64,000 nucleotides of DNA from Reclinomonas americana ATCC 50394 (GCA_048213135.1 PS015009.1:682001-746000), one strand, 5' to 3'; shown: positions 24,770-36,110, counted from the first letter of the stretch. Notes: a model not told the origin generated them from the sequence alone. Made by a program: numbers and translations.

Positions 24770-26320
24770 TTGACCAAAGAATTGATAATAAATGCTGCAC
24801 CCCAGGGCGTAGAGATTGCCCTGCTGGAAGATAAAAAACTGGTGGAGCTGCATACCGAAAAAGCCGATGCCAGCTTTGGCGTGGGCGACCTTTACCTCGG
24901 GAAAGTCAAAAAACTCATTCCGGGACTGAACGCCGCCTTTATTGAAGTGGGGTTTGAAAAAGATGCCTTCCTGCATTATACCGACCTCAGCCCCTACGTA
25001 CGCTCCATACTCAAGTTCACCAACGAAGCCATACACGACAAATCCGAGAACGGATTCGATTTCTCCAAATTCAAAGTGGAACCCGAGATCGTAAAAACGG
25101 GTAAGATCGCCGAAGTACTCAGCGGCCGCCCCAACGTGCTGGTACAGATACTTAAAGAACCCATCGCCGCCAAAGGCCCACGCCTCAGTTGCGAACTGTC
25201 GCTGCCCGGCCGCTTTGTGGTGGTTACTCCTTTTAATGATATCATCGCGGTATCGCGTAAGATCCACTCCGCCGACGAACGCAAACGCCTGCACAAGATC
25301 ATTGAGGCCATCAAACCCAAAAACCTCGGTGTTATCGTACGTACGGCTGCAGAAGGTAAGCACACTGCAGAACTTCATGAAGACCTGCTGAGCCTGGTGG
25401 ATACCTGGAAGACGATCCAGCACAACCTCAAAGGCGCCGTACCTCCTGCCAAGATCCTCAGCGAACAGGGCAAAACCACCAGCATCCTCCGCGACCTGCT
25501 GAACGAGGACTTCAACAAGATTGTGGTGAATGACAAGAACATTTTCAGCGACACCAAGAATTATATCCAGCGTATTGCGCCTGACAAGGCCGATATCGTT
25601 TCTTATTACAACAACGGTTCGCCTATTTTCGACAGCTTCGGCATTACCAAACAGGTGAAAGCCGCTTTTGGTAAGACCGTGAACCTGCCCAGTGGCGCCT
25701 ACCTCATTGTTGAGCATACCGAAGCACTGCACGTGATAGACGTGAACAGCGGCTACAAAAGCGTAAGCAACAACCAGGAACAGAACGCGCTGGAGACCAA
25801 CCTGGAAGCCGCTGAAGAGATCGCCCGCCAGTTGCGCCTGCGTGACCTGGGAGGTATCATTGTGGTGGATTTCATCGATATGAAGCTGGCCGAGAACAAG
25901 AAAAAGCTCGCCGACGCGGTGGAACAATACATGCGCCCCGACAGGGCCAAGCACGCGGTACTGCCCATCAGCAAATTCGGGCTGATGCAGATCACCCGTC
26001 AGCGCATGAAGCCGGAGATGACCATCAACACCACCGAAGTGTGCCCCAGTTGCAATGGTACCGGCAAAATATCGTCCACCCTCATCCTGGAAGATGAGAT
26101 CGAAAAGAACCTCAGTTATCTCATCATGCAGCGCCACAAAGGCCTTACGGTGGAGGTACACCCCATACTGCACGCCTATCTTACCAAAGGCTGGTGGTTA
26201 TCCAAGCTCGCCAAATGGCGGCGCAAGTACAAGCAGAAGATCAAAGTGGTGCCGAATACGAATTACCACCTTACCGAGTTCCACTTTTTTGATGATAGTG
26301 ATGAAGAGATCAAACTGTAA
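24770..26320 (+). CDS. rng: Ribonuclease E/G family
   Basis: S1 domain, IDVNSG, QLRLRDLGGIIVVDFIDM, CPSCNGTG. Confidence 0.95.
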   Translation: MTKELIINAAPQGVEIALLEDKKLVELHTEKADASFGVGDLYLGKVKKLIPGLNAAFIEVGFEKDAFLHYTDLSPYVRSILKFTNEAIHDKSENGFDFSKFKVEPEIVKTGKIAEVLSGRPNVLVQILKEPIAAKGPRLSCELSLPGRFVVVTPFNDIIAVSRKIHSADERKRLHKIIEAIKPKNLGVIVRTAAEGKHTAELHEDLLSLVDTWKTIQHNLKGAVPPAKILSEQGKTTSILRDLLNEDFNKIVVNDKNIFSDTKNYIQRIAPDKADIVSYYNNGSPIFDSFGITKQVKAAFGKTVNLPSGAYLIVEHTEALHVIDVNSGYKSVSNNQEQNALETNLEAAEEIARQLRLRDLGGIIVVDFIDMKLAENKKKLADAVEQYMRPDRAKHAVLPISKFGLMQITRQRMKPEMTINTTEVCPSCNGTGKISSTLILEDEIEKNLSYLIMQRHKGLTVEVHPILHAYLTKGWWLSKLAKWRRKYKQKIKVVPNTNYHLTEFHFFDDSDEEIKL

Positions 26321-26338
26321 ACCGCAGATACTATTTTG

Positions 26339-26375
26339 AAAGAGCCCTGGCAGAGATGCCGGGGCTCTTTGTTTT
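26339..26375 (+). terminator. Intrinsic terminator of rne/rng; left border of the island
   Basis: AAAGAGCCCTGGCA-GAGA-TGCCGGGGCTCTTT followed by GTTTT. Confidence 0.85.
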
Positions 26376-26440
26376 GCCGGGTTTTTACGGGAATAAAATG
26401 GGTGACTAAAACTTAGCTTGCCCGTACATTCCGGAAAATA

Positions 26441-27310
26441 ATGGAAAATACTGATGTAATAAAAGAGATGAGGAAAATGCTTGTTTTGAAAGGATACAGT
26501 TCAAACACCATTCAGACATACCTTAATGAAATGTCGCAGTTTCTGAAAATAATTAAGGAAGTTCCTGCCAGCAGTTTTTCTGCCGAAAGGATAAAGGATT
26601 ATCTGCAATTCTGCCTGGAGAAGCAGGGGTTAAGTGAAAATACACTTCACAGCCGGATAAATGCACTTAAGTTTTATTATGAACAGGTATTGGGCAGAGA
26701 AAGACTCTTTTGGCAGATACCGCGTCCCAAAAAACCTTTGCTTTTACCAAAATTGCTGAATGAAAAAGAGCTGGCCCGTTTATTCAATGCCCTTACAAAC
26801 AGGAAGCATAAAGCAATGCTTTTTACGGTGTATAGCGCCGGATTGCGTGTCAGTGAACTTGCAGAACTGAAGATCAGCGATATTGACAGTCAACGGATGC
26901 AGATACTGATACGAAAAGCGAAAGGGAAAAAAGACAGGTATGTTAATTTAAGTCCTGTGCTGCTGGATATACTCCGGTCGTACATAAGCGTGTATAAGCC
27001 CCGCCCCCGGTTATACCTGTTTGAATCGGATCAGACCAATACAGCTTATCCAACGAGAACTGTTCAACAAATATTTTCCAATGCCAGACAAAGAGCGGGA
27101 ATTATGAAAGATGTTGGTATCCATAGCCTGAGGCACAGTTTTGCCACCCATCTGCTGGATAAGGGTACAGATATCAGGTACATAAAAGACCTGCTGGGAC
27201 ATTTTGATATCAAGACTACTGAGCGCTATCTCCATGTTTCAAAAAGGCAACTGGTGAATATTACCAGTCCGCTGGATGATCTTATGAATAAAGAGAATCT
27301 TAAATGGTAA
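26441..27310 (+). CDS. Tyrosine recombinase, IntI-related but lacking the integron-integrase insertion
   Basis: Catalytic R (GLR), K (KGKKDR), HSLRH, LLGH, Y (TERY); N-terminal YSSNTIQTY and ALKFYYEQVL, RPKK..LP, C-terminal SPLD. Confidence 0.93.
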   Translation: MENTDVIKEMRKMLVLKGYSSNTIQTYLNEMSQFLKIIKEVPASSFSAERIKDYLQFCLEKQGLSENTLHSRINALKFYYEQVLGRERLFWQIPRPKKPLLLPKLLNEKELARLFNALTNRKHKAMLFTVYSAGLRVSELAELKISDIDSQRMQILIRKAKGKKDRYVNLSPVLLDILRSYISVYKPRPRLYLFESDQTNTAYPTRTVQQIFSNARQRAGIMKDVGIHSLRHSFATHLLDKGTDIRYIKDLLGHFDIKTTERYLHVSKRQLVNITSPLDDLMNKENLKW

Positions 27311-27340
27311 TATCATTGATGCTATAAACAATGCGGTACG

Positions 27341-27427
27341 TATAACACTAAATCAATGATTTTTAAGATGTTAATGTTATAAAATTTAAATTGTAATATC
27401 ATATATTTATGTGTTAAATGCCATTGC
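27341..27427 (+). other. Putative attI-like primary recombination site (crossover G27413|TT)
   Basis: GTTAAATGCCATTGC (27413) matches 13/15 the reverse complement of cassette-1 3' end GCAACGGCATATAAC; no 19-bp hairpin upstream; TATAACA/TGTTATA inverted repeat and AAATCA-A-TGATTT palindrome. Confidence 0.65.
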
Positions 27428-27983
27428 TATCAGACGTTTCAAATAGCGACACTTGTATATCATCGTTACAGTTCAGCATTTCTATTTTAGTTTCACCCTT
27501 ATAGCCACGCTTCATATAATAGACAGCACAAGGAAACCCAAATGGGAAACCAGCTTTGCTTGCAGGGAGTGTATGTATTGAAACAAAACCGCCATAATCA
27601 AAAATCAGATTTAAAGTTCCTAAACTCTTAAACATTTTTGCCACAGGAACAAGTAAAACTATGTTATCAGCCAAAGCAAAAGAGTGTTCTAAAAATCTAT
27701 TGTAATCGCTGTATGGCGGATTTGTTACAATCCAATCTACTTTATCATTATAATCATAGTAGTTTTTACCATCAACAATTTCACACCAGTCTGTATCTTT
27801 TGGCAAATGCTTTAAAAATGCACCCTCACCTTTGCAAGGCTCTAAAACCTTACCATCAATATCAAACATCCCACAAATTTGTTTTGCCAACCAATCAGGA
27901 GTAAAAACAACATCATTTGGGTTTATGTGTGCATACTTCCCAACAATATAAGGGTTATGCTTTTGTCCGTTAATGCTTCCCAT
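27414..27983 (-). CDS. Small amino (probably N6-adenine) DNA methyltransferase (cassette 1, inverted)
   Basis: FTP, VLEPCKGEGAF (motif I), IVTNPPY (motif IV). Confidence 0.85.
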   Translation of the reverse strand: MGSINGQKHNPYIVGKYAHINPNDVVFTPDWLAKQICGMFDIDGKVLEPCKGEGAFLKHLPKDTDWCEIVDGKNYYDYNDKVDWIVTNPPYSDYNRFLEHSFALADNIVLLVPVAKMFKSLGTLNLIFDYGGFVSIHTLPASKAGFPFGFPCAVYYMKRGYKGETKIEMLNCNDDIQVSLFETSDSNGI

Positions 27984-28012
27984 ATTTTTAATTTTGTTTA
28001 ACTAACCGCAAC

Positions 28013-28115
28013 GGCATATAACAGTGGGTTTTCTGCTATACGGGCTGACGGAACATTGCCCAGCTTTCTGTTTTCCAAATTCCCGTACAGCAGAAAGCCC
28101 TGTACGTTGTAGGCA
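28013..28115 (+). repeat. attC-like element E1 (short, 37-nt loop)
   Basis: GGCATATAAC-agt-GGGTTTTCTGCTATACGGG ... CCCGTACAGCAGAAAGCCC-tgtac-GTTGTAGGCA. Confidence 0.85.
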
Positions 28116-28137
28116 ACCTTTTCGACACACTCTAATT

Positions 28138-28605
28138 ATGCAAGTTTTTAAGACAGACAAGAAACTCTTTTGGGCTAACGAACTGAAAAGTTGGTTATGG
28201 ACATTTGCCTTTGCAGCTTTGCTATATTTTGGTTTAAAGTATTATTCCTCGTTGACTAACGACAATATTATTGTTGGCGTCGTTGTTCTTTTGCTTCTTA
28301 AACTTGCAGACACATTGACCCAATACCATGTAAGAGAAATTCAAATTGACGGACAGAGGAAACAAATGACCGTGATACTAAATAGTAGAATGTCTGGTGA
28401 GAAAATAAAAAGATATGAATTAGGGGAAGTGACATCAGAATTAAAAAACAATTCGGGCCTGACAAAATATTTGTCTTCTCCATTTACCCTTAAAATATTT
28501 TTGAAACCAAAAGATGTATTTGTAATAAGCAATAGATATGGCTTTACATTAGACGCATTAACTTCGGTTGACAAAATACTAAAATCATTGAAAGCTCAAG
28601 CATGA
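28138..28605 (+). CDS. Hypothetical 2-TM membrane protein (cassette 2)
   Basis: ATG 28138, two hydrophobic segments; bounded by E1 and E2. Confidence 0.75.
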   Translation: MQVFKTDKKLFWANELKSWLWTFAFAALLYFGLKYYSSLTNDNIIVGVVVLLLLKLADTLTQYHVREIQIDGQRKQMTVILNSRMSGEKIKRYELGEVTSELKNNSGLTKYLSSPFTLKIFLKPKDVFVISNRYGFTLDALTSVDKILKSLKAQA

Positions 28606-28616
28606 CACAATAAGGC

Positions 28617-28822
28617 TGCCTACAACATTGGTATTTGCAAAAGCTGGGCAGACGGAACCCGTGTTTCAACTTTTGTTTTTCAATTTCGCTTCATATCGGG
28701 CAGGACGTTAATAATTTAGCTTTGTGCAAATCATCAACATAAATTTATAAATTTAGATTCAGGTAGCCGAGCTGACGACTATCTATTCCCCAGCCTTCGC
28801 AAATACCTGCTCGTTAGGTGCA
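28617..28822 (+). repeat. attC-like element E2
   Basis: TGCCTACAAC-att-GGTATTTGCAAAAGCTGGG ... CCCAGCCTTCGCAAATACC-tgctc-GTTAGGTGCA. Confidence 0.88.
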
Positions 28823-28873
28823 AGTATAGCGACCACCCCAATAGACAACGACAGCTAAACGAAAGCAAGCCCA

Positions 28874-29467
28874 ATGGAAATAGACAAATCAAAACAACTC
28901 ATTACTACATCTATAAATAAAGACACCGTTTTACTTTTCGATATGGACGGAACTTTGGTTGACACAGATTTTGCAAATTTTTTATCGTATCAAAAAGCGA
29001 TAGAATTAGTAATCGGTCTTGACAAGGAAATTCAATACAATCCTAATGAAAGGTTCAATCGTACAACTTTAAAAACAGTCCTGCCAAATTTGACAGAAAC
29101 TGAGTATGAAAAAATAATCCAGCAAAAAGACAAAAACTACAAAGAGCATTTATCACAAACAAAATTGAATAAACCTGTAGCAGATATTTTGCTACAATAT
29201 TCCAATACAAATAAAACGGTTTTAGTTACAAACTGCCGACAAGACAGAGCATTAATGACATTAAATTATTACAATCTTACAGACAAATTCAGTAACTTAA
29301 TATTCCGACAGATTTCAGACAATGAAAGCCGAATGAATAAATACAAATACGCATTATCAAGTTTGAACCTATCAGCTCAAACAGTTGTAGTTTTTGAAAA
29401 TGAAAAACAAGAAATTGAAGATGCTAAACTTGCAGGTATTTCGATTAATAACATTTTAAGCCTTTAG
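28874..29467 (+). CDS. HAD-superfamily phosphatase (cassette 3, gene 1)
   Basis: LLFDMDGTLVDT motif I, LVTN motif II, VFEN...AKLAG motif IV. Confidence 0.9.
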   Translation: MEIDKSKQLITTSINKDTVLLFDMDGTLVDTDFANFLSYQKAIELVIGLDKEIQYNPNERFNRTTLKTVLPNLTETEYEKIIQQKDKNYKEHLSQTKLNKPVADILLQYSNTNKTVLVTNCRQDRALMTLNYYNLTDKFSNLIFRQISDNESRMNKYKYALSSLNLSAQTVVVFENEKQEIEDAKLAGISINNILSL

Positions 29468-29470
29468 AAT

Positions 29471-30097
29471 ATGACACCTTTCACAATAGTACAAAACAAT
29501 TACTTGACACAGAACATTCAGGGGTTTTATCATACTGATTTCGGTGGCGTAGACCTGCCTAACAATCCAAATTATCTTTATAAGTTAAAAAATGACCCAC
29601 ACCATAATTGGTCAGACTTTAGAATCCAAGAAGCACAACAGCAATTATTGAGAGTACTACTTATTGACCTTCCAGAAATAGTAAGGCAAATCAATGTAAG
29701 TCCTTTAACAGTTTGTGTTGTACCAAGGGCTAAAGCTGATAATACTTATCGTCCCAATCAATTACTATTCAAAGCAACTATTAGAAATGCTGTAAATCAG
29801 TTAGGTAATAGTTTTAGAGACGGAACAAACTTTATTGTACGTCATACAAATACAAAGACTACGCATCTTAGAAAGCCGATGGAAGGCTTTGTAAATGATG
29901 GTGCCGAGCCGTATCCTGGTGTCAGTACTGCTACCTGTAATTTTTCAAGAAATATTAATGGACAAAATATTCTATTGATTGACGATATTTATACAAGAAC
30001 TGTAAACATCGATGAAGATATGATTCAATCATTATTGAATAGTGGGGCAAATTCAGTTACTTTCTATGCAATTGGAAACACTGTTTACAATCACTAA
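29471..30097 (+). CDS. Type I phosphoribosyltransferase, ComF-like (cassette 3, gene 2)
   Basis: VCVVP; ILLIDDIYTR PRPP-binding loop; GANSVTFYAIG. Confidence 0.85.
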   Translation: MTPFTIVQNNYLTQNIQGFYHTDFGGVDLPNNPNYLYKLKNDPHHNWSDFRIQEAQQQLLRVLLIDLPEIVRQINVSPLTVCVVPRAKADNTYRPNQLLFKATIRNAVNQLGNSFRDGTNFIVRHTNTKTTHLRKPMEGFVNDGAEPYPGVSTATCNFSRNINGQNILLIDDIYTRTVNIDEDMIQSLLNSGANSVTFYAIGNTVYNH

Positions 30098-30109
30098 AAC
30101 AAAATTCAA

Positions 30110-31105
30110 ATGAAGTACACAGACAACGCCATCAATATTATTACAGCAAAAACCTACAAGGGAATTGGCAGAGCATGGATTGTAAAAAATTTAAAAGGAA
30201 ATGAAAGTGCTGATACTATTGTTTCCTTATTGAATGGGAACTCAAAGGAAGATTATCTAATCACACTTGATGATTTTGAGTATGAAAAAAATAAAATAAT
30301 CAATCAAATAGAAGCTTTTGGAGAAAGCTGCGATGGAATTGTTGCAATTGGTGACAAGAGTTTTCCAAAGTATAGAGGAAATGTTAAGGAAAGTGAGCGA
30401 CCAATTTTCCTTTTTTATAAAGGCGATATAAATCTATTGGATATTGAAAATCACAACATCACCGTTATTGGACTTCTTAACCCAGACGAAGCCATTGAAA
30501 TTAGAGAAAAAAAAATAGTCGCTGAAATTGTCAATAAAGGTGTGGCAATTGTTAGCGGCTTAGCATTTGGTTGTGATAGTATTGCACACAGACAAGCACT
30601 TATTGGAGGAAAAACAATCGCAGTTCTACCAAGTCCCTTAAACAGTATTATGCCTGCAAAAAATAAAAGTTTAGCATTTGAGATAGTTGAAGATGGCGGA
30701 CTTTTAATTACTGAATATTATGACGAACATAAATCTGCAATGGATTTAAGCAGCCGATACAAAGACCGTGATAGATTGCAAGCATTATTTTGTGATACTA
30801 TTATTTTAGCCGCTAGCTATGCACAAGATTCTGCAACTCGTTGGAAAATTACAGACCAAAAATTGGACAGTGGTGCAAGATTGGCAATGGGATTTGCAAA
30901 AGAATATAATATTCCCCGAGCAGTAATGTATGACCAAAACACTGATTCAAATAATCCAATGTTTGATTTGAATCGACAATTAATTTCAGAACAAAATGTT
31001 ACTATTTTAACTCAAAAAAACTTGCAAGAAATTATCGACAAGATTAAGACTAAAGACACAAGAAGTAACAGCAATATTGCTTATCAAAAAGATTTGTTTA
31101 GCTGA
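30110..31105 (+). CDS. DprA/Smf (SLOG) family protein (cassette 3, gene 3)
   Basis: PIFLFYKGD, IVSGLAFGCDSIAHRQAL, TIAVLP, GLLITEY, RDRLQA, SGA. Confidence 0.9.
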   Translation: MKYTDNAINIITAKTYKGIGRAWIVKNLKGNESADTIVSLLNGNSKEDYLITLDDFEYEKNKIINQIEAFGESCDGIVAIGDKSFPKYRGNVKESERPIFLFYKGDINLLDIENHNITVIGLLNPDEAIEIREKKIVAEIVNKGVAIVSGLAFGCDSIAHRQALIGGKTIAVLPSPLNSIMPAKNKSLAFEIVEDGGLLITEYYDEHKSAMDLSSRYKDRDRLQALFCDTIILAASYAQDSATRWKITDQKLDSGARLAMGFAKEYNIPRAVMYDQNTDSNNPMFDLNRQLISEQNVTILTQKNLQEIIDKIKTKDTRSNSNIAYQKDLFS

Positions 31106-31129
31106 CGAGAGGGCGAGACCAAACACACC

Positions 31130-31333
31130 TGCACCTAACAGGGGGTTTGCCAAAATACGGGCGGACGGAAGTTATCTTCGGCTTTTTGTAATTCTATTGT
31201 GCTTCATATCGGGCTGGACATTATCTATTTAGCTTTTGTTGTTATCTTCATCTTCAGTTTTTCAATCATCATCGGTACCGTGCGGACGGAATACTAATTC
31301 CCGTACTTCGGCAAGCCCTGTCCGTTGGCTGCT
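31130..31333 (+). repeat. attC-like element E3
   Basis: TGCACCTAAC-agg-GGGTTTGCCAAAATACGGG ... CCCGTACTTCGGCAAGCCC-tgtcc-GTTGGCTGCT. Confidence 0.88.
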
Positions 31334-31349
31334 ACTCTAAAGCGACATA

Positions 31350-31901
31350 ATGAAACTTTTTCCATTTCTAAAAAAGAAGGACAACAAAATAGTTTACAAA
31401 TGTTCTTGTTGTGGACAAGAATATAACAGTGTGCCGCTTTGTTTTGGCGGAGACTTTCCAGACTATTATTTTTCTGTCCCACCTGAAGAAAGAAATGAGA
31501 GAATCGAATTACAACCAAGCCTTTGTGTCGTTGACAAAACACATTTTTTTCATCGTGGCAGGTTGACAATTCCTATCATCGACCACACAGAAAATTTAAT
31601 TTTCAACGTTTGGACTTCTATAAGTGAAGACAATTTTGGAATTAGAATGGATTTTTGGGAAGACCCGAAACGAGTTGACCAAGAGCCGTATTTTGGTTGG
31701 TTGCAGACAATTGTACCAACTTATGGCGACACATTAAATATTAAGACAATCGCAATCGAGCAAGAAGTTGGACTAATTCCAAATATTCATGTCATAGAAG
31801 AAAATCATCCGCTAAAGGTTGACCAAGACAATGGAATCACTTATAAAGAAGCATTAAAAAAAGTTGACGAAATATTACGAATGCATCATCAGAAAAATTG
31901 A
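31350..31901 (+). CDS. DUF2199-like protein (cassette 4)
   Basis: YKCSCCGQEY, FFHRGRLTIPI, YFGWL, HPL..DQ.NGIT. Confidence 0.75.
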   Translation: MKLFPFLKKKDNKIVYKCSCCGQEYNSVPLCFGGDFPDYYFSVPPEERNERIELQPSLCVVDKTHFFHRGRLTIPIIDHTENLIFNVWTSISEDNFGIRMDFWEDPKRVDQEPYFGWLQTIVPTYGDTLNIKTIAIEQEVGLIPNIHVIEENHPLKVDQDNGITYKEALKKVDEILRMHHQKN

Positions 31902-31920
31902 CCTCATTATTTGACCGAGC

Positions 31921-32120
31921 AGCAGCCAACATGCGGTTTGCCGCAATGCTGGCAGGCTCAAGAACAATCGGCGGCAAATCATTAATGGACTTCGGTCCCG
32001 GCGTACATTATTCTATTGAGCATTTGTATTAACTTCAGCATAAAATCAATGACCGGGCTTTTGTTTCAGCGGACGGATATAGAATCCTAGCACTGCGGCA
32101 AGCCCTGCCCGTTGGCTGCA
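31921..32120 (+). repeat. attC-like element E4
   Basis: AGCAGCCAAC-atg-CGGTTTGCCGCAATGCTGG ... CTAGCACTGCGGCAAGCCC-tgccc-GTTGGCTGCA. Confidence 0.85.
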
Positions 32121-32154
32121 AGGCGAAACAGTCCATTCAAAATTGAAATCTTAA

Positions 32155-32679
32155 ATGAAAAAGGTAATTCTTAATACGCTTATTTTACTTTCTACTTCAA
32201 CCGCATTTTCTCAGACGGAGAAATTGGAATTAAAGGTTATTGATAGCCTCAATTTCTCGAAGCAGGAACTATATGTTAGAGCGAGGGCATTTATTGCTTA
32301 TAGTTTTAAGAATTCCAAAAATGTTATTCAAATGGACGATAAAGACGCTGGGAAGATAATTTGCAAAGGAAGCATGACACCTGCCAGTAAGGGAACTTTT
32401 GGAATGACGTATCAAAACAATGTGGATTTCACCTTAACAATAGACGTGAGGGACGGTAAGTATAGAGCTCTAATTTCAGAAATATATCATTCAGGCCTTG
32501 GACCTAAGAAAGAATATGCAGGTGGGGCTATTGAAAACGAAAAGCCTGCCTGCGGTACGTTTTTTATTCCCAAAAAGGATTGGGATAAAATGAAAGAGGC
32601 AATAAAGGCAGAAGCATCCGCCTATTTAGACAGTTTAAAGACAGCGATGAATAAAGAAGTGAAAAAAGATGATTTCTAA
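32155..32679 (+). CDS. Exported DUF4468-like protein (cassette 5)
   Basis: Signal peptide; SKQELY..A, VIQMDDKDAGKII, IDVRDGKYR. Confidence 0.7.
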   Translation: MKKVILNTLILLSTSTAFSQTEKLELKVIDSLNFSKQELYVRARAFIAYSFKNSKNVIQMDDKDAGKIICKGSMTPASKGTFGMTYQNNVDFTLTIDVRDGKYRALISEIYHSGLGPKKEYAGGAIENEKPACGTFFIPKKDWDKMKEAIKAEASAYLDSLKTAMNKEVKKDDF

Positions 32680-32692
32680 CTCCTAACTGCCC

Positions 32693-32894
32693 TGCTGCTA
32701 ACATGGGCTTGGCGTAATTGGGGCTTGACGGAAAAACTTTCAGCTTCTGTACACATCCAGGCATTAGCTATGGGCCTGACCGTTTACTTAAAGTCATACG
32801 TTCTATTTAAATATTTCGTTTCTTTATAGCATCAAAGGCCGGGCGGACATAGGGTTAATTCCCCAACTACGCCAAGCCCTCGACGTTAGCTGTA
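32693..32894 (+). repeat. attC-like element E5
   Basis: TGCTGCTAAC-at-GGGCTTGGCGTAATTGGGG ... CCCCAACTACGCCAAGCCC-tcgac-GTTAGCTGTA. Confidence 0.88.
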
Positions 32895-32933
32895 ACCTTG
32901 GAGCGACACTACAAAAAATCAACAACAGACAAA

Positions 32934-33626
32934 ATGAGTATGAAGAAAATAGGATTAATAGGTGGAATTAGTTGGGTTTCGACAATAGATTATTACAAGT
33001 TCATCAACGAAGGAGTAAATACAAAATTGGGTGGACTAAATTTTGCTGAATGTATTATTTACTCTTTAAATTTTGGAGACATACAAGCAAAAAGTTGGGA
33101 CAATTCATTTGAACTACTATTGACCGCATGTGAGAGTTTGAAAAAAAGTGGTGTGGACAGTATAGTTTTGTGTGCTAATACTGCACATCTTTTTGCAGAC
33201 AAGCTTCAAGAAACAATCAATTTGCCAATTATTCATATTGGAGTAGAAACTGCAAAAGCTGTTAATAAACAAGGATATAAAAAAGTAGGACTGCTAGGAA
33301 CAAAATTCACAATGGAAATGGACTTCTACAGAAATAAACTTGAAGAGTATGGGCTTGAGGTTTTGATACCACAAAAACAAGAGACAAGAGATTACATTCA
33401 ACACACTATAAAAGAAGAATTAGGTATAGGATTTACTAATCCAGAGACAAAGAAAAACTACATTTCAATTGTAAAAGAATTGGTTGAGAATGGAGCTGAG
33501 TGTATTATTTTAGGTTGTACAGAAATACCAATGTTAATAAGTCAAGACGATTTTTCAACACCAATTTTTGACACGACAAAAATTCATTCACAAGCCATCA
33601 TTGAATATATTGTCTCAGAGAATTGA
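32934..33626 (+). CDS. Aspartate/glutamate racemase, RacX/YgeA-like (cassette 6)
   Basis: IGLIGGISW, CANTAH, LLGT, ILGCTEIP. Confidence 0.93.
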   Translation: MSMKKIGLIGGISWVSTIDYYKFINEGVNTKLGGLNFAECIIYSLNFGDIQAKSWDNSFELLLTACESLKKSGVDSIVLCANTAHLFADKLQETINLPIIHIGVETAKAVNKQGYKKVGLLGTKFTMEMDFYRNKLEEYGLEVLIPQKQETRDYIQHTIKEELGIGFTNPETKKNYISIVKELVENGAECIILGCTEIPMLISQDDFSTPIFDTTKIHSQAIIEYIVSEN

Positions 33627-33652
33627 GACAATATTAGACAGAAAAGAAAGGT

Positions 33653-33855
33653 AGCAGCCAACATGGGGTTTTCTGCTATGCTGGCTGAAGAATATATACT
33701 GATCATCCCATTCGCTTATCAGCTGTAGTTCGGGCTGAACGGAGAAACCCCAGCAACAGAATATAACATCAACTGCATTAAATTTACTCAGCAACAGTTC
33801 GGGCTGACGAATAACGGAATATCAGCACAGCAGAAAGCCCTGGCCGTTCGCGGCA
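33653..33855 (+). repeat. attC-like element E6
   Basis: AGCAGCCAAC-atg-GGGTTTTCTGCTATGCTGG ... TCAGCACAGCAGAAAGCCC-tggcc-GTTCGCGGCA. Confidence 0.87.
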
Positions 33856-33900
33856 AGCCGCCAAAGCTAAACTGTAATAACTTTTAAAGTGTCAGGTACA

Positions 33901-34407
33901 ATGACAAGAAATTTAGCGATTGCAAACCGACTTCGAGAGGTTCTTCTAAATGGAAAATGGATTGCCAACACAAACTTCAAAGAACAAATATTAAGCGTCA
34001 GTTGGGAACAGGCTATCCAAAAAGTCGGGAATTTAAATACGATTGCTTTGCTAACTTTTCATATAAACTATTATCTGCAAGGAATTCTGAACGTTTTTAA
34101 TGGCGGGCAACTTGAAATAAGAGACAAATACAGCTTTAACCTTCCAGAAATTAAGTCTGAAACAGATTGGAATGCATTAGTCAACGATTTCATAAATAAT
34201 TCTGAACTGTTTGCAAACAAAGTTGAACAAATGGCTGACAGCATGTTTGACCAACCATTTCTCGACGAAAAATACGGAAGTTATTTACGAAATATTGAAG
34301 GCGTTATTGAGCACAGCTATTATCATTTAGGGCAAGTTTCGTTAATAAGAAAGATGATTATTCAGAAACAGAATCTCAAAAGTGATAATAGTGAATCAAC
34401 AGAATAG
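33901..34407 (+). CDS. DinB/DUF1572-like protein (cassette 7)
   Basis: NTIALLTFHINYY and IEHSYYHLGQ DinB-type His motifs. Confidence 0.8.
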   Translation: MTRNLAIANRLREVLLNGKWIANTNFKEQILSVSWEQAIQKVGNLNTIALLTFHINYYLQGILNVFNGGQLEIRDKYSFNLPEIKSETDWNALVNDFINNSELFANKVEQMADSMFDQPFLDEKYGSYLRNIEGVIEHSYYHLGQVSLIRKMIIQKQNLKSDNSESTE

Positions 34408-34438
34408 AAAATTTGAGGCAGGTTTTACAAGAAAAGCC

Positions 34439-34475
34439 AGCCGCTAACATTGGTATTGCCCGCTGGTGGCAAGCA
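34439..34475 (+). repeat. Truncated attC-like element E7 (left end only)
   Basis: AGCCGCTAAC-att-GGTATTGCC, similar to the E2 left end; no right arm or GTT core seen. Confidence 0.6.
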
Positions 34476-34514
34476 TTCCAAAGCTCATCAAACAAACAGG
34501 ACAATAAAAAGAAA

Positions 34515-35069
34515 ATGAAAAAATCAATTTTGATATTAATCAGTCTTTTCAATATACTTATTAGTCAGGCGAGACAAACCGAATCAGATGTTAAAACATT
34601 AAAAGCTGACATAAACGCTAATGGACAAGTCGATGTAATAAAACCAGGCACGAATGCTCTTTCACTGAGCATTGACAATAAAAGCTATACTATTTCATAT
34701 GGTCTTTTAGGTTTTGAATCTTTATCTGAATTAAATTTTACAAATAATATTCTAACAATATCTGGATATAACAGCGGAACCGGTGCTTATAGCTGGGTTT
34801 ATAAATTCAGAAATAATAAATTAACTAAAAAAATAGAACTGATTGGATATGACGATTTCAATAAATGGGTTTCAGGAAATATTACAACAAGTATAAATAC
34901 CATAACAAATAAGTATAAAGTGATATTGGAAGAATATAACCATGCTAAACAGGAAATGGAAACTACAAAACATACAGGAAAAATTTCAATCAGGAGAATT
35001 GGGCTGACAGACATTAAGAAAGAAGACGTAGATAAACTTACTGGAATTGGCATGAAATACTGGAAGTAA
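34515..35069 (+). CDS. Hypothetical exported protein
   Basis: ATG 34515, MKKSILILISLF signal-like N-terminus; AT-rich like the cassettes. Confidence 0.7.
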   Translation: MKKSILILISLFNILISQARQTESDVKTLKADINANGQVDVIKPGTNALSLSIDNKSYTISYGLLGFESLSELNFTNNILTISGYNSGTGAYSWVYKFRNNKLTKKIELIGYDDFNKWVSGNITTSINTITNKYKVILEEYNHAKQEMETTKHTGKISIRRIGLTDIKKEDVDKLTGIGMKYWK

Positions 35070-35239
35070 TGAATATGCCAGCCACTGTCAATAAACTGAA
35101 AACCAAATACAAACAATAAACCTTGGTACAAGTACCACTCGGACCTAACTGTTAACGAACAGTTCCATGTCGCTTCAGGTTATTTTAATAAAATACATTA
35201 TATTTATTATAAATATACCTGCAACCTAAACGATACTCT

Positions 35240-35464
35240 ATGTATACAGAAACAATGGCCGAAACCTTACCGGTAAGCCAAAAAGATCATCTTCGCAAAA
35301 CCACCCACACACACCGGGAAATAACCCTCTCCGCGGCAAAGCCTGACATTACCATGCATCGCGGGGAGTGCTCTGTTTACGGGTGCTACTGTAAGGAATA
35401 TGTGGGAGCTAATGTGGGTACTTGTGAAAACTGTGGCCACCATTACGACAGTCACCGTTATTAA
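35240..35464 (+). CDS. Small Cys/His-rich protein
   Basis: C-terminal GECSVYGCYCKEY...CENCGHHYDSH. Confidence 0.5.
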   Translation: MYTETMAETLPVSQKDHLRKTTHTHREITLSAAKPDITMHRGECSVYGCYCKEYVGANVGTCENCGHHYDSHRY

Positions 35465-35579
35465 CATGTAAAGATTTTTCTGTCCGTTTCCTGCCATACA
35501 AACTGGCATGATGGTTATTTTATTGTCAGTATGTTGCCCACAACATGCCGGCGACAGGTTTCTACCAACAAACGCGTCA

Positions 35580-36110
35580 TCAGAGTTTTACACTCACCCT
35601 AAAAGTTTTGGCATCTGTTGCCTCCAGCCATAACAGCGCCCTTTTTCCGTTCTCCATCTGAACGAGAAAACAATGGTACTTAATCCCTGCAGCCAGGTCA
35701 TCTGTTATGGAGGCGAAATGCACAAAAGAGTTTTTAGTCAGGTAGCCTGTCATTCTTTGCAGGTCCTGGCTGGTATTGCATTTGTCAAACTGGTCTTTAT
35801 CGAAGCTCAGGGTGCTGATAACAGAGGCTGTGCCTCTCAGGTCAACAGGGATCTTTTCGTCCTTTCCGCTCATATTGTACCACTCCGCCACCTGCTTTTT
35901 ATCATTCTGGGTTATGATCAGGGCCAGGTCCACGCTTGATTTATTGTTCTTCGCCTCTTCAGTTGTAAATACTTTTTTCTGTGATATACCCAGGTAACTG
36001 TTGGCGCCAACCCGGGGGTTCAGGGTAGCGGTAAAACTGGTCAGTTTTTGCGCCAAGCCCGGCAAAACGGTCATTATGCTTAAAAAAGTAACTACAATTG
36101 ATTTCAACAT
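35580..36110 (-). CDS. Hypothetical exported protein
   Basis: 176-aa ORF with a signal-like N-terminus. Confidence 0.65.
   Translation of the reverse strand: MLKSIVVTFLSIMTVLPGLAQKLTSFTATLNPRVGANSYLGISQKKVFTTEEAKNNKSSVDLALIITQNDKKQVAEWYNMSGKDEKIPVDLRGTASVISTLSFDKDQFDKCNTSQDLQRMTGYLTKNSFVHFASITDDLAAGIKYHCFLVQMENGKRALLWLEATDAKTFRVSVKL

What the first reader, a model, noticed from the sequence alone, without database searches (positions are those of the whole stretch)
27413..34448. Each cassette's start is complementary to its own end: footprint of circular intermediates
Seen: the 10 nt starting at each GTT match the reverse complement of the AAC core that ends the same cassette. C1 GTTAAATGCC/GGCATATAAC 9/10; C2 GTTGTAGGCA/TGCCTACAAC 10/10; C3 GTTAGGTGCA/TGCACCTAAC 10/10 across about 2.3 kb; C4 GTTGGCTGCT/AGCAGCCAAC 10/10; C5 8/10; C6 7/10; C7 8/10. 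The in-place pairings of E1-E3 are only 7, 6 and 7 of 10. E4 and E5 pair 9 and 8 of 10 in place, so the test is less informative there. Known: integron cassettes show exactly this pattern because the site is intact in the circle and split at G|TT on insertion. Inference: cassettes move as units, and the better matches near the integrase suggest the youngest inserts are proximal.
Basis: partly seen in the sequence, partly recalled or inferred. Interest (0 to 1): 0.84.

Follow-up and report, generated by a model that had tools for sequence, protein, structure and literature searches.

The report
Integron-like cassette array, non-integron recombinase
The pattern is real: this stretch of a Chitinophagaceae-type genome is a row of seven swappable gene cassettes that behave like integron cassettes, but the neighbouring recombinase lacks the protein segment thought to define integron integrases.

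Summary
All seven 10-mer pairs sit where stated. The own-start versus own-end match is 62/70; 8 of 5040 permutations reach it. In 62 cassettes from related genomes, own ends match at 6.32 of 7 variable positions against 3.83 in place; 0 of 20,000 permutations reach this.

The element has four parts:
- a 289-aa tyrosine recombinase (26441-27310), on the same strand as the cassettes
- an attI-like site with its crossover at GTT 27413-27415
- seven cassettes separated by attC-like hairpin sites of 103 and 200-206 nt
- a decayed distal end

Cassette C3 carries a Shosta phage-defence pair.

Cassettes C3 and C4 occur in other genomes with different neighbours. Homology stops at GTT on C4's right side and on both sides of C3. 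Contigs from other samples part from the window exactly at 27415.

The recombinase is not a canonical IntI. The roughly 40-aa IntI insertion is absent, and it scores below the curated integron-integrase cut-off.

This recombinase-plus-array design recurs across Chitinophagaceae. Six literature searches found no description of it. This scan has noted the same system before on other DNA.

Circular intermediates are inferred, not seen. The idea that better matches mean younger cassettes does not hold across the family.

The parts
26441..27310 (+). Tyrosine recombinase, 289 aa, on the same strand as the cassettes. Xer-like, without the IntI-specific insertion and without the ~115-aa N-terminal domain that most relatives carry.
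   Evidence: Pfam Phage_integrase 7.5e-36. NCBIfam XerA_Arch 211 bits (cut-off 220) and integron integrase TIGR02249 188 bits (cut-off 265), the latter matched in two stretches. Against VchIntIA 2a3v, query residues 188-195 stand where chain residues 187-233 are. Alignment with IntI1 shows about 40 residues missing, with R136, K161, H228, R231, H254 and Y263 invariant in the five aligned sequences. N-terminal domain present in 63 of 79 loci and absent here.
27311..27415 (+). attI-like insertion region. It holds one copy of the motif ACAAT-N8-10-TAWAA (27328-27345), then the core CATATATTTATGT|GTT with the crossover inside GTT 27413-27415.
   Evidence: The same layout follows the stop codon in related loci. 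The motif is found in 28 of 74 loci against 1 of 339 control windows. Contigs of X1 and X2 match up to 27415 and then run on unlike the window; X5 has a loose end at 27415.
27413..28105 (+). Cassette C1, including site E1. Its single ORF is reversed (27414-27983, minus strand, 189 aa) and resembles type II methyltransferases only weakly.
   Evidence: PADLOC MTase_II E about 4e-4, no Pfam or NCBIfam hit.
28013..28115 (+). attC-like site E1, 103 nt.
   Evidence: Folds as a long imperfect hairpin on both strands, z -3.2 and -3.8. Half-site profile hits.
28106..28812 (+). Cassette C2. ORF 28138-28605 (155 aa), no family match.
28617..28822 (+). attC-like site E2, 206 nt.
28813..31323 (+). Cassette C3 with three genes: HAD-family hydrolase (28874-29467), ShosT-like (29471-30097) and ShosA/DprA-like (30110-31105). 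This is a Shosta-type anti-phage defence cassette.
   Evidence: Pfam HAD_2 3.4e-12 and DNA_processg_A 1.9e-32. PADLOC ShosT 6.9e-8 and ShosA 2.1e-43. Counterpart cassette in L002.
31130..31333 (+). attC-like site E3, 204 nt.
31324..32110 (+). Cassette C4. ORF 31350-31901, DUF2199.
   Evidence: Pfam 1.4e-41. 89%-identical counterpart in L102 2980-3755 in a different context.
31921..32120 (+). attC-like site E4, 200 nt.
32111..32884 (+). Cassette C5. ORF 32155-32679, DUF4468.
   Evidence: Pfam 4.8e-16.
32693..32894 (+). attC-like site E5, 202 nt.
32885..33845 (+). Cassette C6. ORF 32898-33626, Asp/Glu racemase family.
   Evidence: Pfam 2.2e-39, TIGR00035 1.8e-62.
33653..33855 (+). attC-like site E6, 203 nt.
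33846..34480 (+). Cassette C7. ORF 33889-34407 with a weak DinB_2 match. It ends in a truncated site E7 (from 34439): the left core (R'') and the start of the stem's left arm are present, but there is no right half and no GTT.
   Evidence: Read from the sequence. The fold of 34439-34520 is no better than shuffles, z -0.27. Not detected by the left-half profile.
34481..35184 (+). Distal low-GC segment with ORF 34515-35069 (184 aa, no family match). The likely end of the element is near a GTT at 35179-35181.
   Evidence: GC 0.28 at 34500-34999 against 0.45 beyond 35500. No Pfam or PADLOC hit. Contigs in X1 and X4 match only from 35185 and 35192 rightwards (loose ends).

Best explanation
This is a sedentary, integron-like gene-capture platform of a Chitinophagaceae-type bacterium.

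A tyrosine recombinase gene is followed on the same strand by an insertion site (attI-like, core ...TATATTTATGT|GTT). After it come seven cassettes, each ending in a long folding site built like an integron attC. That site reads: left core ending in AAC, 3-nt spacer, 19-bp stem whose sequence varies but whose pairing is kept, a large variable centre, the stem's other arm, 5-nt spacer, right core starting GTT.

Recombination cuts inside the GTT of the right core. The bases after G therefore belong to the next cassette.

Shown here:
- the pattern itself, and its recurrence in related arrays
- the pairing constraint on the sites
- the strict position and strand of the sites relative to the recombinase gene
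- cassettes shared between genomes with breakpoints at GTT

Inferred:
- that the neighbouring recombinase is the catalyst
- that the sites act as folded single strands
- that cassettes pass through a free circular form

The recombinase is not a canonical integron integrase. It lacks the IntI-specific insertion and belongs to a separate clade.
For: 1. Observation: 62/70, 8 of 5040 permutations reach it.

2. Independent set: own 6.32/7 against in place 3.83/7; 0 of 20,000 shuffles, within arrays and globally. For first cassettes, running from the attI GTT to the first left core, 17 of 19 match at 6 or more of 7.

3. Site placement: half-site profiles hit only the recombinase strand (111 of 111 left, 113 of 113 right). 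There are 0 hits in 637,764 nt upstream and 205 in 239,924 nt downstream. Among loci with at least 5 kb downstream, 19 of 19 have a half-site, 18 of 19 a full site and 15 of 19 two or more.

4. Pairing: over 91 sites, stem columns L14-L32 against R35-R17 pair in 84-100% of sites, apart from the two mismatch-prone positions below; at the variable positions shuffled columns give about 50%. Many changes are on both sides, for example GC 46 / TA 44 at one position. The A.C mismatch is conserved in 89 of 91. The variable positions of the in-place cores pair no better than shuffled.

5. Shared cassettes:
- C3 and L002: the cores are GTTAGGTGCA/TGCACCTAAC in the window and GTTGGTGGCA/AGCCACCAAC in L002, and the upstream cassette is different.
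- C4 and L102: 89% over 778 nt, ending right after GTT.
- L005 and L016: a shared segment begins exactly at GTT, behind an attC in one and behind attI in the other.

6. Other samples: contigs of X1 and X2 match 25750-27415 and 25741-27415, then run on unlike the window for 153 and 1155 letters. X5 has a loose end at 27415. Contigs enter C4 at 31317 (X1) and 31323 (X4), and C5 at 32096 (X2), from unlike sequence.

7. Recombinase: catalytic residues are kept. None of 5 array-bearing genomes has any protein over the integron-integrase cut-off.

8. Composition: GC falls from about 0.5 to 0.28-0.41 across the array.
Against: - No circle junction and no excision product was seen. All four runs were contigs, and the four joints listed had sides of 20-47 letters in repeat-rich sites, so they were not used.
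- No genome is held for the window. A canonical IntI, or a full-length paralogue acting in trans, cannot be excluded for this organism.
- The window's recombinase lacks the N-terminal domain found in 63 of 79 loci, and the last site is truncated. The platform could therefore be partly decayed.
- 6 of 37 related loci with at least 1.5 kb downstream show no detectable site.
- 11 of 12 DUF2199 homologue loci are not in arrays.
- The segment shared by L005 and L016 covers only about 250 nt and does not end at a recognised site.
- Which strand folds and recombines is unresolved: the window's six sites fold about equally well on both strands.
- The half-site profiles were seeded from this window's sites.
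Confidence: 0.8

Rival explanations
1. This is an ordinary integron whose true IntI lies elsewhere in the genome. The adjacent recombinase is a bystander, for example a Xer paralogue or part of another mobile element.
For: The window's genome is not held, so the absence of an IntI cannot be shown for this organism. The closest sampled relative outside the family is a recombinase that accompanies an IS91 transposase. In L002 such an IS sits right behind the array recombinase.
Against: - None of 5 array-bearing genomes has a protein over the TIGR02249 cut-off; their best matches are the array recombinases themselves.
- Sites lie only downstream and on the same strand: 205 hits against 0.
- A conserved attI-like core directly follows the gene.
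- Host Xer-like genes form a separate group in the tree.
- None of the ten window ORFs tested carries a Y2 transposase domain.
Confidence: 0.05
2. The array is a frozen relic. The short recombinase is inactive, and differences between strains arose by homologous recombination between similar attC-like repeats or by replacement of whole segments, not by site-specific recombination in this lineage.
For: The N-terminal domain is missing. The terminal site is truncated. Own-match is lower for C5-C7 at 7-8 of 10. attC-like sites share long similar stretches that could support homologous exchange.
Against: - Catalytic residues are intact and the reading frame is whole.
- Contigs carrying the same short recombinase gene (6 and 9 differing letters over about 1.67 kb) diverge exactly at the attI GTT. 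No attC repeat is there to support homologous exchange.
- Short forms of the recombinase head arrays of 3 to 5 full sites in L009, L013 and L014, and 2 in L068.
- C1-C4 keep 9-10 of 10 own matches.
Confidence: 0.1
3. The repeats are generic intergenic palindromes, such as REP-like elements or terminators, and the start-to-end complementarity is a by-product of their shared consensus.
For: The cores share invariant GTT/AAC and near-invariant GC, which inflates raw 10-mer scores. The sites sit after ORFs, as terminators do.
Against: - Permutations that keep the consensus are still beaten: 8 of 5040 in the window, 0 of 20,000 in the independent set.
- Complementarity links positions 0.5-2.3 kb apart and co-varies between counterpart cassettes.
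- Sites occur only behind one recombinase family.
- No Rfam family matches.
Confidence: 0.02

Closest known systems
Sedentary chromosomal integrons (IntI + attI + attC arrays, for example the Vibrio cholerae superintegron)
   Same: - A recombinase gene next to an attI-like site
- A row of mostly single-gene, co-oriented cassettes, 6 of 7 here
- Each cassette ends in an imperfect inverted repeat with AAC...GTT cores
- Structure is conserved rather than sequence
- The crossover is in GTT, so a cassette's start complements its own end
- The cargo includes a phage-defence system
   Different: - The recombinase lacks the IntI-specific insertion and fails the curated IntI model, and it forms a clade apart from four IntIs.
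- The gene is on the same strand as the cassettes.
- Sites are mostly 183-199 nt from AAC to GTT (70 of 91). Canonical attC sites are, from memory, about 57-141 nt.
- The stem carries a conserved A.C mismatch rather than the bulged extrahelical bases I recall for canonical sites.
- The host phylum is one where IntegronFinder 2.0 reported a single complete integron, in Salinibacter (PMC9024848, passages).
Integrons with the integrase on the same strand as the cassettes (the 'inverted' group described in Spirochaetota and others; recalled, and mentioned in passages of 10.1101/2022.02.06.479319)
   Same: The recombinase gene runs in the same direction as the cassettes, with attI at its 3' end.
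   Different: From memory, those integrases still carry the IntI additional domain. This family does not.
CALINs (clusters of attC sites lacking an integron integrase)
   Same: A tool that requires the IntI-specific profile would see only a cluster of sites with no IntI here, if it recognised the sites at all.
   Different: A dedicated recombinase gene consistently heads the array: 18 of 19 loci with at least 5 kb downstream have a full site. Cury et al. [quoted passage not shown] Their 21 such cases are listed only in supplements, which I could not see.
Xer-mobilised dif modules (pdif modules of Acinetobacter plasmids; recalled)
   Same: Gene modules bounded by sites for a Xer-type tyrosine recombinase. 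The recombinase here scores close to the Xer models.
   Different: From memory, dif-type sites are short double-stranded sites of about 28 bp in alternating orientation. Here the sites are 86-199-nt hairpins, all on one strand, with a dedicated attI.
Tyrosine recombinases that accompany IS91-family transposases
   Same: This is the closest sampled relative outside the family: the Clostridium plasmid protein is 45-46% identical and sister in the tree with support 97/94. It also lacks the IntI insertion.
   Different: No Y2 or HUH transposase gene lies in the window's element, and the IS91-associated protein heads no cassette array in the locus I looked at.

Membership tests
Integron (IntI-attI-attC) | The integrase carries the IntI-specific additional domain near patch III. 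| tested here: not met
   Eight residues stand where VchIntIA has 47. About 40 IntI1 residues have no counterpart. In 5 related genomes the array recombinases match profile positions 2-179 and 240-315 only.
Integron (IntI-attI-attC) | The integrase passes the curated integron-integrase model (TIGR02249, cut-off 265 bits). | tested here: not met
   187.9 bits. 0 of 5 related genomes have any protein over the cut-off.
Integron (IntI-attI-attC) | The integrase belongs to the IntI clade. | tested here: not met
   In a 20-row tree the four IntIs form one clade (100/98) and the eleven array recombinases another (99/98), which is sister to an IS91-associated recombinase. Sampling is small and the tree has no outgroup root.
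Integron (IntI-attI-attC) | An attI site lies beside the integrase gene, where cassettes enter at G|TT. | tested here: met
   A conserved core ...TATATTTAWGT|GTT follows the gene in the window and many loci. Contigs of three other samples diverge at 27415. The same segment lies behind attI in L016 and behind an attC in L005.
Integron (IntI-attI-attC) | attC sites have R''-L''...L'-R' imperfect inverted repeats with AAC/GTT cores, conserved in structure rather than sequence. | tested here: met
   AAC in 106 of 111 left halves and GTT in 110 of 113 right halves. A 19-bp stem shows abundant two-sided changes over 91 sites. Lengths are unusual, mostly 183-199 nt.
Integron (IntI-attI-attC) | Extrahelical bases on the recombined strand set strand choice. 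| tested here: inconclusive
   No conserved bulge was found. Instead there is a conserved A.C mismatch (89 of 91) and asymmetric spacers of 3 and 5 nt. Both strands fold about equally well.
Integron (IntI-attI-attC) | A cassette's first bases complement the inverse core at its own end. | tested here: met
Integron (IntI-attI-attC) | The sites are recognised by the IntegronFinder attC covariance model. | not testable with these tools
   The model is not available here, and Rfam holds no attC family. The Rfam scan of 26000-36000 gave 0 matches at E up to 1.
Integron (IntI-attI-attC) | Free circular cassette intermediates exist. | not testable with these tools
   Only assembled contigs could be laid.
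Xer/dif-type modules | Short double-stranded dif-like sites in alternating orientation bound the modules. | tested here: not met
   All 224 half-site hits are on one strand, and the sites are 86-199-nt hairpins. I did not search for dif-like 28-mers.
IS91-family element with accessory tyrosine recombinase | An adjacent Y2 (HUH) transposase gene. | tested here: not met
   None of the ten ORFs of 26441-34407 has Y2_Tnp or Zn_Tnp_IS91. These domains are found in L002 12088-13254.
Shosta defence system (cargo of C3) | A ShosT (phosphoribosyltransferase-like) and ShosA (DprA-like) gene pair. | tested here: met
   PADLOC ShosT 6.9e-8 and ShosA 2.1e-43 on adjacent genes. Function was not tested.

The most novel reading that the evidence does not exclude
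A second lineage of integron exists, hidden from standard integron searches and common in Chitinophagaceae and other Bacteroidota. Its recombinase does the job of an integron integrase (attI x attC capture and attC x attC excision of folded sites) without the IntI-specific domain held to be essential. Its recombination sites are about 200-nt modular hairpins with a conserved A.C mismatch. If so, the integron way of life either arose twice or predates the IntI insertion.
Probability: 0.6. Interest if true: 0.85.

Novelty: new variant of a known kind. Interest (0 to 1): 0.75.

Why it matters
Integron biology rests on the view that the IntI-specific domain is what lets a tyrosine recombinase handle folded attC sites (passages of 10.1101/2022.02.06.479319, PMC8138268 and PMC4889954). 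It also holds that Bacteroidota essentially lack integrons (PMC9024848, passages).

Here a recombinase family without that domain heads cassette arrays that pass the classic sequence tests for integron-type recombination. At least 530 loci in a one-genome-per-species collection encode a relative of it. Among the 79 distinct loci examined, 18 of the 19 with at least 5 kb of downstream sequence carry such sites.

That would open three things:
- a large unexplored pool of mobile cassettes, a phage-defence system among them, in soil, freshwater and sludge bacteria
- a natural experiment on which protein features are really needed for recombination of folded DNA
- a new angle on how integrons arose

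Its value here is that it shows this atypical system works the same way.

Tried and rejected
- Whole genome of the window: none is held. Earlier notes on this place: none.
- Rfam scan of 26000-36000 at E up to 1: no match.
- Exact 33-nt scan of metagenome contigs with the start of C4: 0 matches.
- Protein scan with C4: 12 loci, of which only L102 lies in an array; the other 11 show no sites.
- Sequencing runs: no RNA holder is listed. Small shares of words were not used as evidence.
- Laying contigs of X1, X2, X4 and X5: positions 27688-28455 and 28840-30759 (C1-C3 apart from their repeat sites) got little or no cover. That proves nothing about absence. The four joints listed (28703>28783, 28810>31143, 31162>31266, 33688>33817) have sides of 20-47 letters inside repeat-rich sites at 90% likeness, so I did not use them.
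- Circle junctions could not be looked for, because no raw reads were on offer.
- Narrow regex for the right half-site: too specific, replaced by iterated nhmmer profiles.
- An idea that the site centres carry a Bacteroidetes-type -7 promoter box (TAnnTTTG, recalled): seen by eye in E2 and E3 but not in the L058 sites. Dropped.
- An earlier scan note calling the N-terminal domain HARP-like: Pfam gives no such hit on P0012, P0019 or P0030, only a sub-threshold DUF5710 match. I made no structure prediction.
- Strand choice from folding energies: no consistent difference.
- Age gradient along arrays: none.

Full report
OBSERVATION

Scoring each cassette start against the reverse complement of its own end gives 9, 10, 10, 10, 8, 7, 8 of 10 (62/70). 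The in-place pairings of E1-E6 give 7, 6, 7, 9, 8, 7. Over all 5040 ways of assigning ends to starts the mean is 50.0 (sd 3.2), and 8 assignments reach 62. GTT/AAC is fixed and a following GC is nearly fixed in the family. The signal therefore rests on about four or five positions per cassette, but it is real.

ANATOMY

A 289-aa tyrosine recombinase gene (26441-27310, + strand) follows a ribonuclease G-type gene. After it comes a 100-nt AT-rich region ending in CATATATTTATGT|GTT (27413). Then come seven cassettes with starts at 27413, 28106, 28813, 31324, 32111, 32885 and 33846.

Six of the seven carry forward ORFs; C1's ORF is reversed. The cargo is as follows:
- C1: a weak methyltransferase-like ORF
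- C2: unknown
- C3: a HAD hydrolase plus a ShosT/ShosA (Shosta) defence pair
- C4: DUF2199
- C5: DUF4468
- C6: an Asp/Glu racemase
- C7: a weak DinB-like ORF

The sites between cassettes are 103 nt (E1) and 200-206 nt (E2-E6), and they fold as long imperfect hairpins. E7 is truncated. A further low-GC ORF follows, and the element seems to end near 35185. GC drops from about 0.5 to 0.28-0.41 across the array. Site motifs occur nowhere else in the 64-kb window.

THE SAME DESIGN IN RELATED GENOMES

The recombinase has very many relatives at 72-77% identity, named by their sources as Chitinophagaceae, Hanamia, Hydrotalea, Ginsengibacter and Sphingobacteriales.

I built profiles of the left and right site halves, seeded from the window and iterated on these loci. 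They hit only the recombinase's strand (111 of 111 and 113 of 113) and only downstream of the gene: 0 hits in 637,764 nt upstream against 205 in 239,924 nt downstream. This is over 79 loci, with L067 dropped as a duplicate of L066 and the window excluded.

Of the 19 loci with at least 5 kb downstream, 19 have a half-site, 18 a full site and 15 two or more. Of the 37 with at least 1.5 kb, 6 show none. Spans from AAC to GTT fall into classes: 80s (1 site), 110s (1), 120s (10), 150s (8), 180s (50), 190s (20), 230s (1).

Leaving the window out, 62 cassettes with both ends detected match their own end at 6.32 of 7 positions after GTT, 39 of them perfectly. The 78 sites pair in place at 3.83 of 7. 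Shuffling ends within arrays (52 cassettes in 13 arrays) or globally never reached the observed sum in 20,000 trials each. First cassettes, from the attI GTT to the first left core, match at 6 or more of 7 in 17 of 19 cases. A missed site between a start and an end would only lower the own-match, so the test is conservative.

STRUCTURE

Over 91 sites, left-half columns 14-32 pair with right-half columns 35-17 in 84-100% of sites, apart from the two mismatch-prone positions noted next. At the variable positions shuffled columns give about 50%, and many changes are two-sided, for example GC 46 / TA 44, or GC 47 / CG 31 / AT 8. One position is an A.C mismatch in 89 of 91 sites; another is G-C in 55 and A.C in 34. 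The spacers between cores and stem are 3 and 5 nt.

The four variable positions of the cores pair in place no better than shuffled columns (0.54-0.78 against 0.46-0.74). Selection on pairing with little selection on sequence is what a site that acts as a folded strand would show.

CASSETTES AS UNITS

1. C3 has a 68%-identical counterpart in L002 (1317 and 382 nt aligned). It lies behind a different cassette, begins ...CCTACC|GTTGGTGGCA, and is followed by ...AGCCACCAAC. The window has GTTAGGTGCA and TGCACCTAAC. Both cores have changed while staying complementary across 2.3 kb.

2. C4 has an 89%-identical counterpart in L102 (778 nt). On the right, homology runs through the ORF and the whole site and stops just after GTTG, and a different cassette follows. 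On the left, homology starts 5 nt after GTT. The cassette's first 11 nt (GTTGGCTGCTA) lie 448 nt further up against an attI-like core (...CATAAATTAGCGT|GTT). They are separated from the rest by 438 nt that the window lacks, flanked by a CTGCTA direct repeat.

3. A 94%-identical 249-nt segment begins exactly at GTT in L005 (behind an attC-like site) and in L016 (behind attI). It does not end at a recognised site.

4. Contigs of other samples: X1 and X2, from two studies, match 25750-27415 and 25741-27415 with 6 and 9 differing letters. They then continue for 153 and 1155 letters unlike the window. X5 has a loose end at 27415. Contigs enter C4 from unlike sequence at 31317 (X1) and 31323 (X4), and C5 at 32096 (X2).

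The crossover is thereby placed within the GTT triplet at attI, and within a few conserved bases of GTT elsewhere.

THE RECOMBINASE

Pfam sees a phage-integrase catalytic domain and a SAM-like N-terminal domain. NCBIfam ranks the archaeal XerA/'integron integrase' model first (211 bits, cut-off 220). The integron-integrase model comes next (188 bits, cut-off 265, matched in two stretches), then XerC and XerD.

Against solved structures the best match is Pyrococcus XerA (8e-39). Against VchIntIA, eight residues stand where the chain has residues 187-233. Aligned with IntI1 taken from a plasmid record, about 40 IntI1 residues have no counterpart in the window protein, in two relatives, or in a Clostridium IS91-associated recombinase. 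The catalytic R, K, H, R, H and Y are invariant.

In five genomes that carry arrays, nothing passes the integron-integrase cut-off. The array recombinases match profile positions 2-179 and 240-315 only.

A 20-row tree gives an IntI clade (4 rows, 100/98) and an array-recombinase clade (11 rows, 99/98). The latter has the IS91-associated protein as sister (97/94). Host Xer-like proteins sit apart. With only three groups and no outgroup, the tree cannot say which two are closest.

Most relatives carry an extra N-terminal domain of about 115 aa: 63 of 79 loci have it, and 16 lack it, the window among them. Short forms also head arrays.

attI

Behind the stop codon many loci have one to four copies of ACAAT-N8-10-TAWAA (28 of 74 loci, against 1 of 339 control windows). 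The window has one, at 27328. Then comes a core such as GCGTATATTTAAGT|GTT.

MECHANISM

Shown: the split of the right core at GTT, the pairing constraint, the fixed position and strand of sites behind this recombinase family, breakpoints at GTT between genomes and samples, and intact catalytic residues.

Inferred by analogy with integrons (established knowledge, recalled): the recombinase binds folded single-stranded sites, excises cassettes as circles by site-by-site recombination, and inserts them at attI. How the enzyme copes without the IntI insertion is unknown. The N-terminal domain cannot be the general answer, since arrays exist without it.

THE AGE GRADIENT

In 80 cassettes of related arrays, own-match does not fall with rank (rho 0.10, p 0.39) or with distance (rho 0.05, p 0.64). 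That the proximal end turns over is suggested only by the contigs that diverge at 27415.

LITERATURE

Six full-text searches found no description of cassette arrays headed by such a recombinase in Chitinophagaceae. I read passages only of the following:
- PMC9024848: the only complete integron in Bacteroidetes proper was in Salinibacter ruber.
- PMC4889954: recombinases lacking intI_Cterm near attC 'are not IntI'.
- 10.1101/2022.02.06.479319: the additional domain is given as a defining character.
- PMC8618304, 10.1101/2024.07.02.601686, PMC13674405 and PMC13616975: nothing bearing on this.

Supplements were closed, and those of the first two papers could hold members of this family.

Notes from this scan show that other agents reached the same reading on other DNA. 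I treat those as leads, not support.

VERDICT

The integron-like reading of it is supported, with the circular intermediate itself left unobserved. The element is best filed as a new variant of the integron kind, not as a member of the IntI integron family.

Noticed in passing
L007 10922-11308; also L008, L023, L029, L037, L040, L045, L075: A single-strand DNA-binding protein gene (Pfam SSB 2.1e-35 in L007) starts 7-81 nt after the recombinase stop, on the same strand, in 8 of 79 loci. In L079 and L006 an SSB gene lies just upstream of the recombinase gene. This is suggestive for a system thought to use folded single strands.
   Followed up: partly
L002 11218-13254: An IS91-type unit sits between the array recombinase and its array. 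It consists of a second tyrosine recombinase plus a Y2_Tnp/Zn_Tnp_IS91 transposase. L032 also has a second recombinase copy. The closest plasmid relative of the window's recombinase (Clostridium, L094) is likewise followed by an IS91 transposase.
   Followed up: partly
L009 10879-11020: Four tandem copies, about 36 nt apart, of CCGACAATACAAAATGTATAA lie directly behind the recombinase gene. Other loci have one to four copies. They may be recombinase or accessory-protein binding sites of attI.
   Followed up: partly
Window E1-E6 and sites in L001-L080: Site spans come in classes of about 86, 120, 155 and 185-195 nt, that is in steps of roughly 33 nt. The centres repeat a GGGC(T/G)GAC(G/A) motif up to three times, as if built from modules.
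   Followed up: no
L102 2413-2990: Inside an array, an attI-like core (CATAAATTAGCGT|GTT) sits behind a normal site. The C4-like cassette that follows is interrupted after 11 nt by 438 nt with a small ORF, flanked by a CTGCTA direct repeat.
   Followed up: partly
L001-L080: In 22 of 79 loci the contig ends within 500 nt after the recombinase gene, as expected if the repeated sites break short-read assemblies. Arrays of this kind are therefore probably under-represented in MAGs.
   Followed up: no
Window 35179-35192: Contigs of X1 and X4 match the window only from 35185 and 35192 rightwards, just after a GTT at 35179-35181. This may mark the distal edge of the element.
   Followed up: no
P0012, P0019 and 63 of 79 loci: Most relatives carry an N-terminal domain of about 115 aa with a conserved W..T..CWY motif that the window's protein lacks. 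Pfam gives only a sub-threshold DUF5710 match.
   Followed up: partly
Window 28874-31105: The Shosta pair in C3 is preceded within the same cassette by a HAD-family hydrolase gene, and the L002 counterpart keeps all three genes. This may be a three-gene variant of the system.
   Followed up: no
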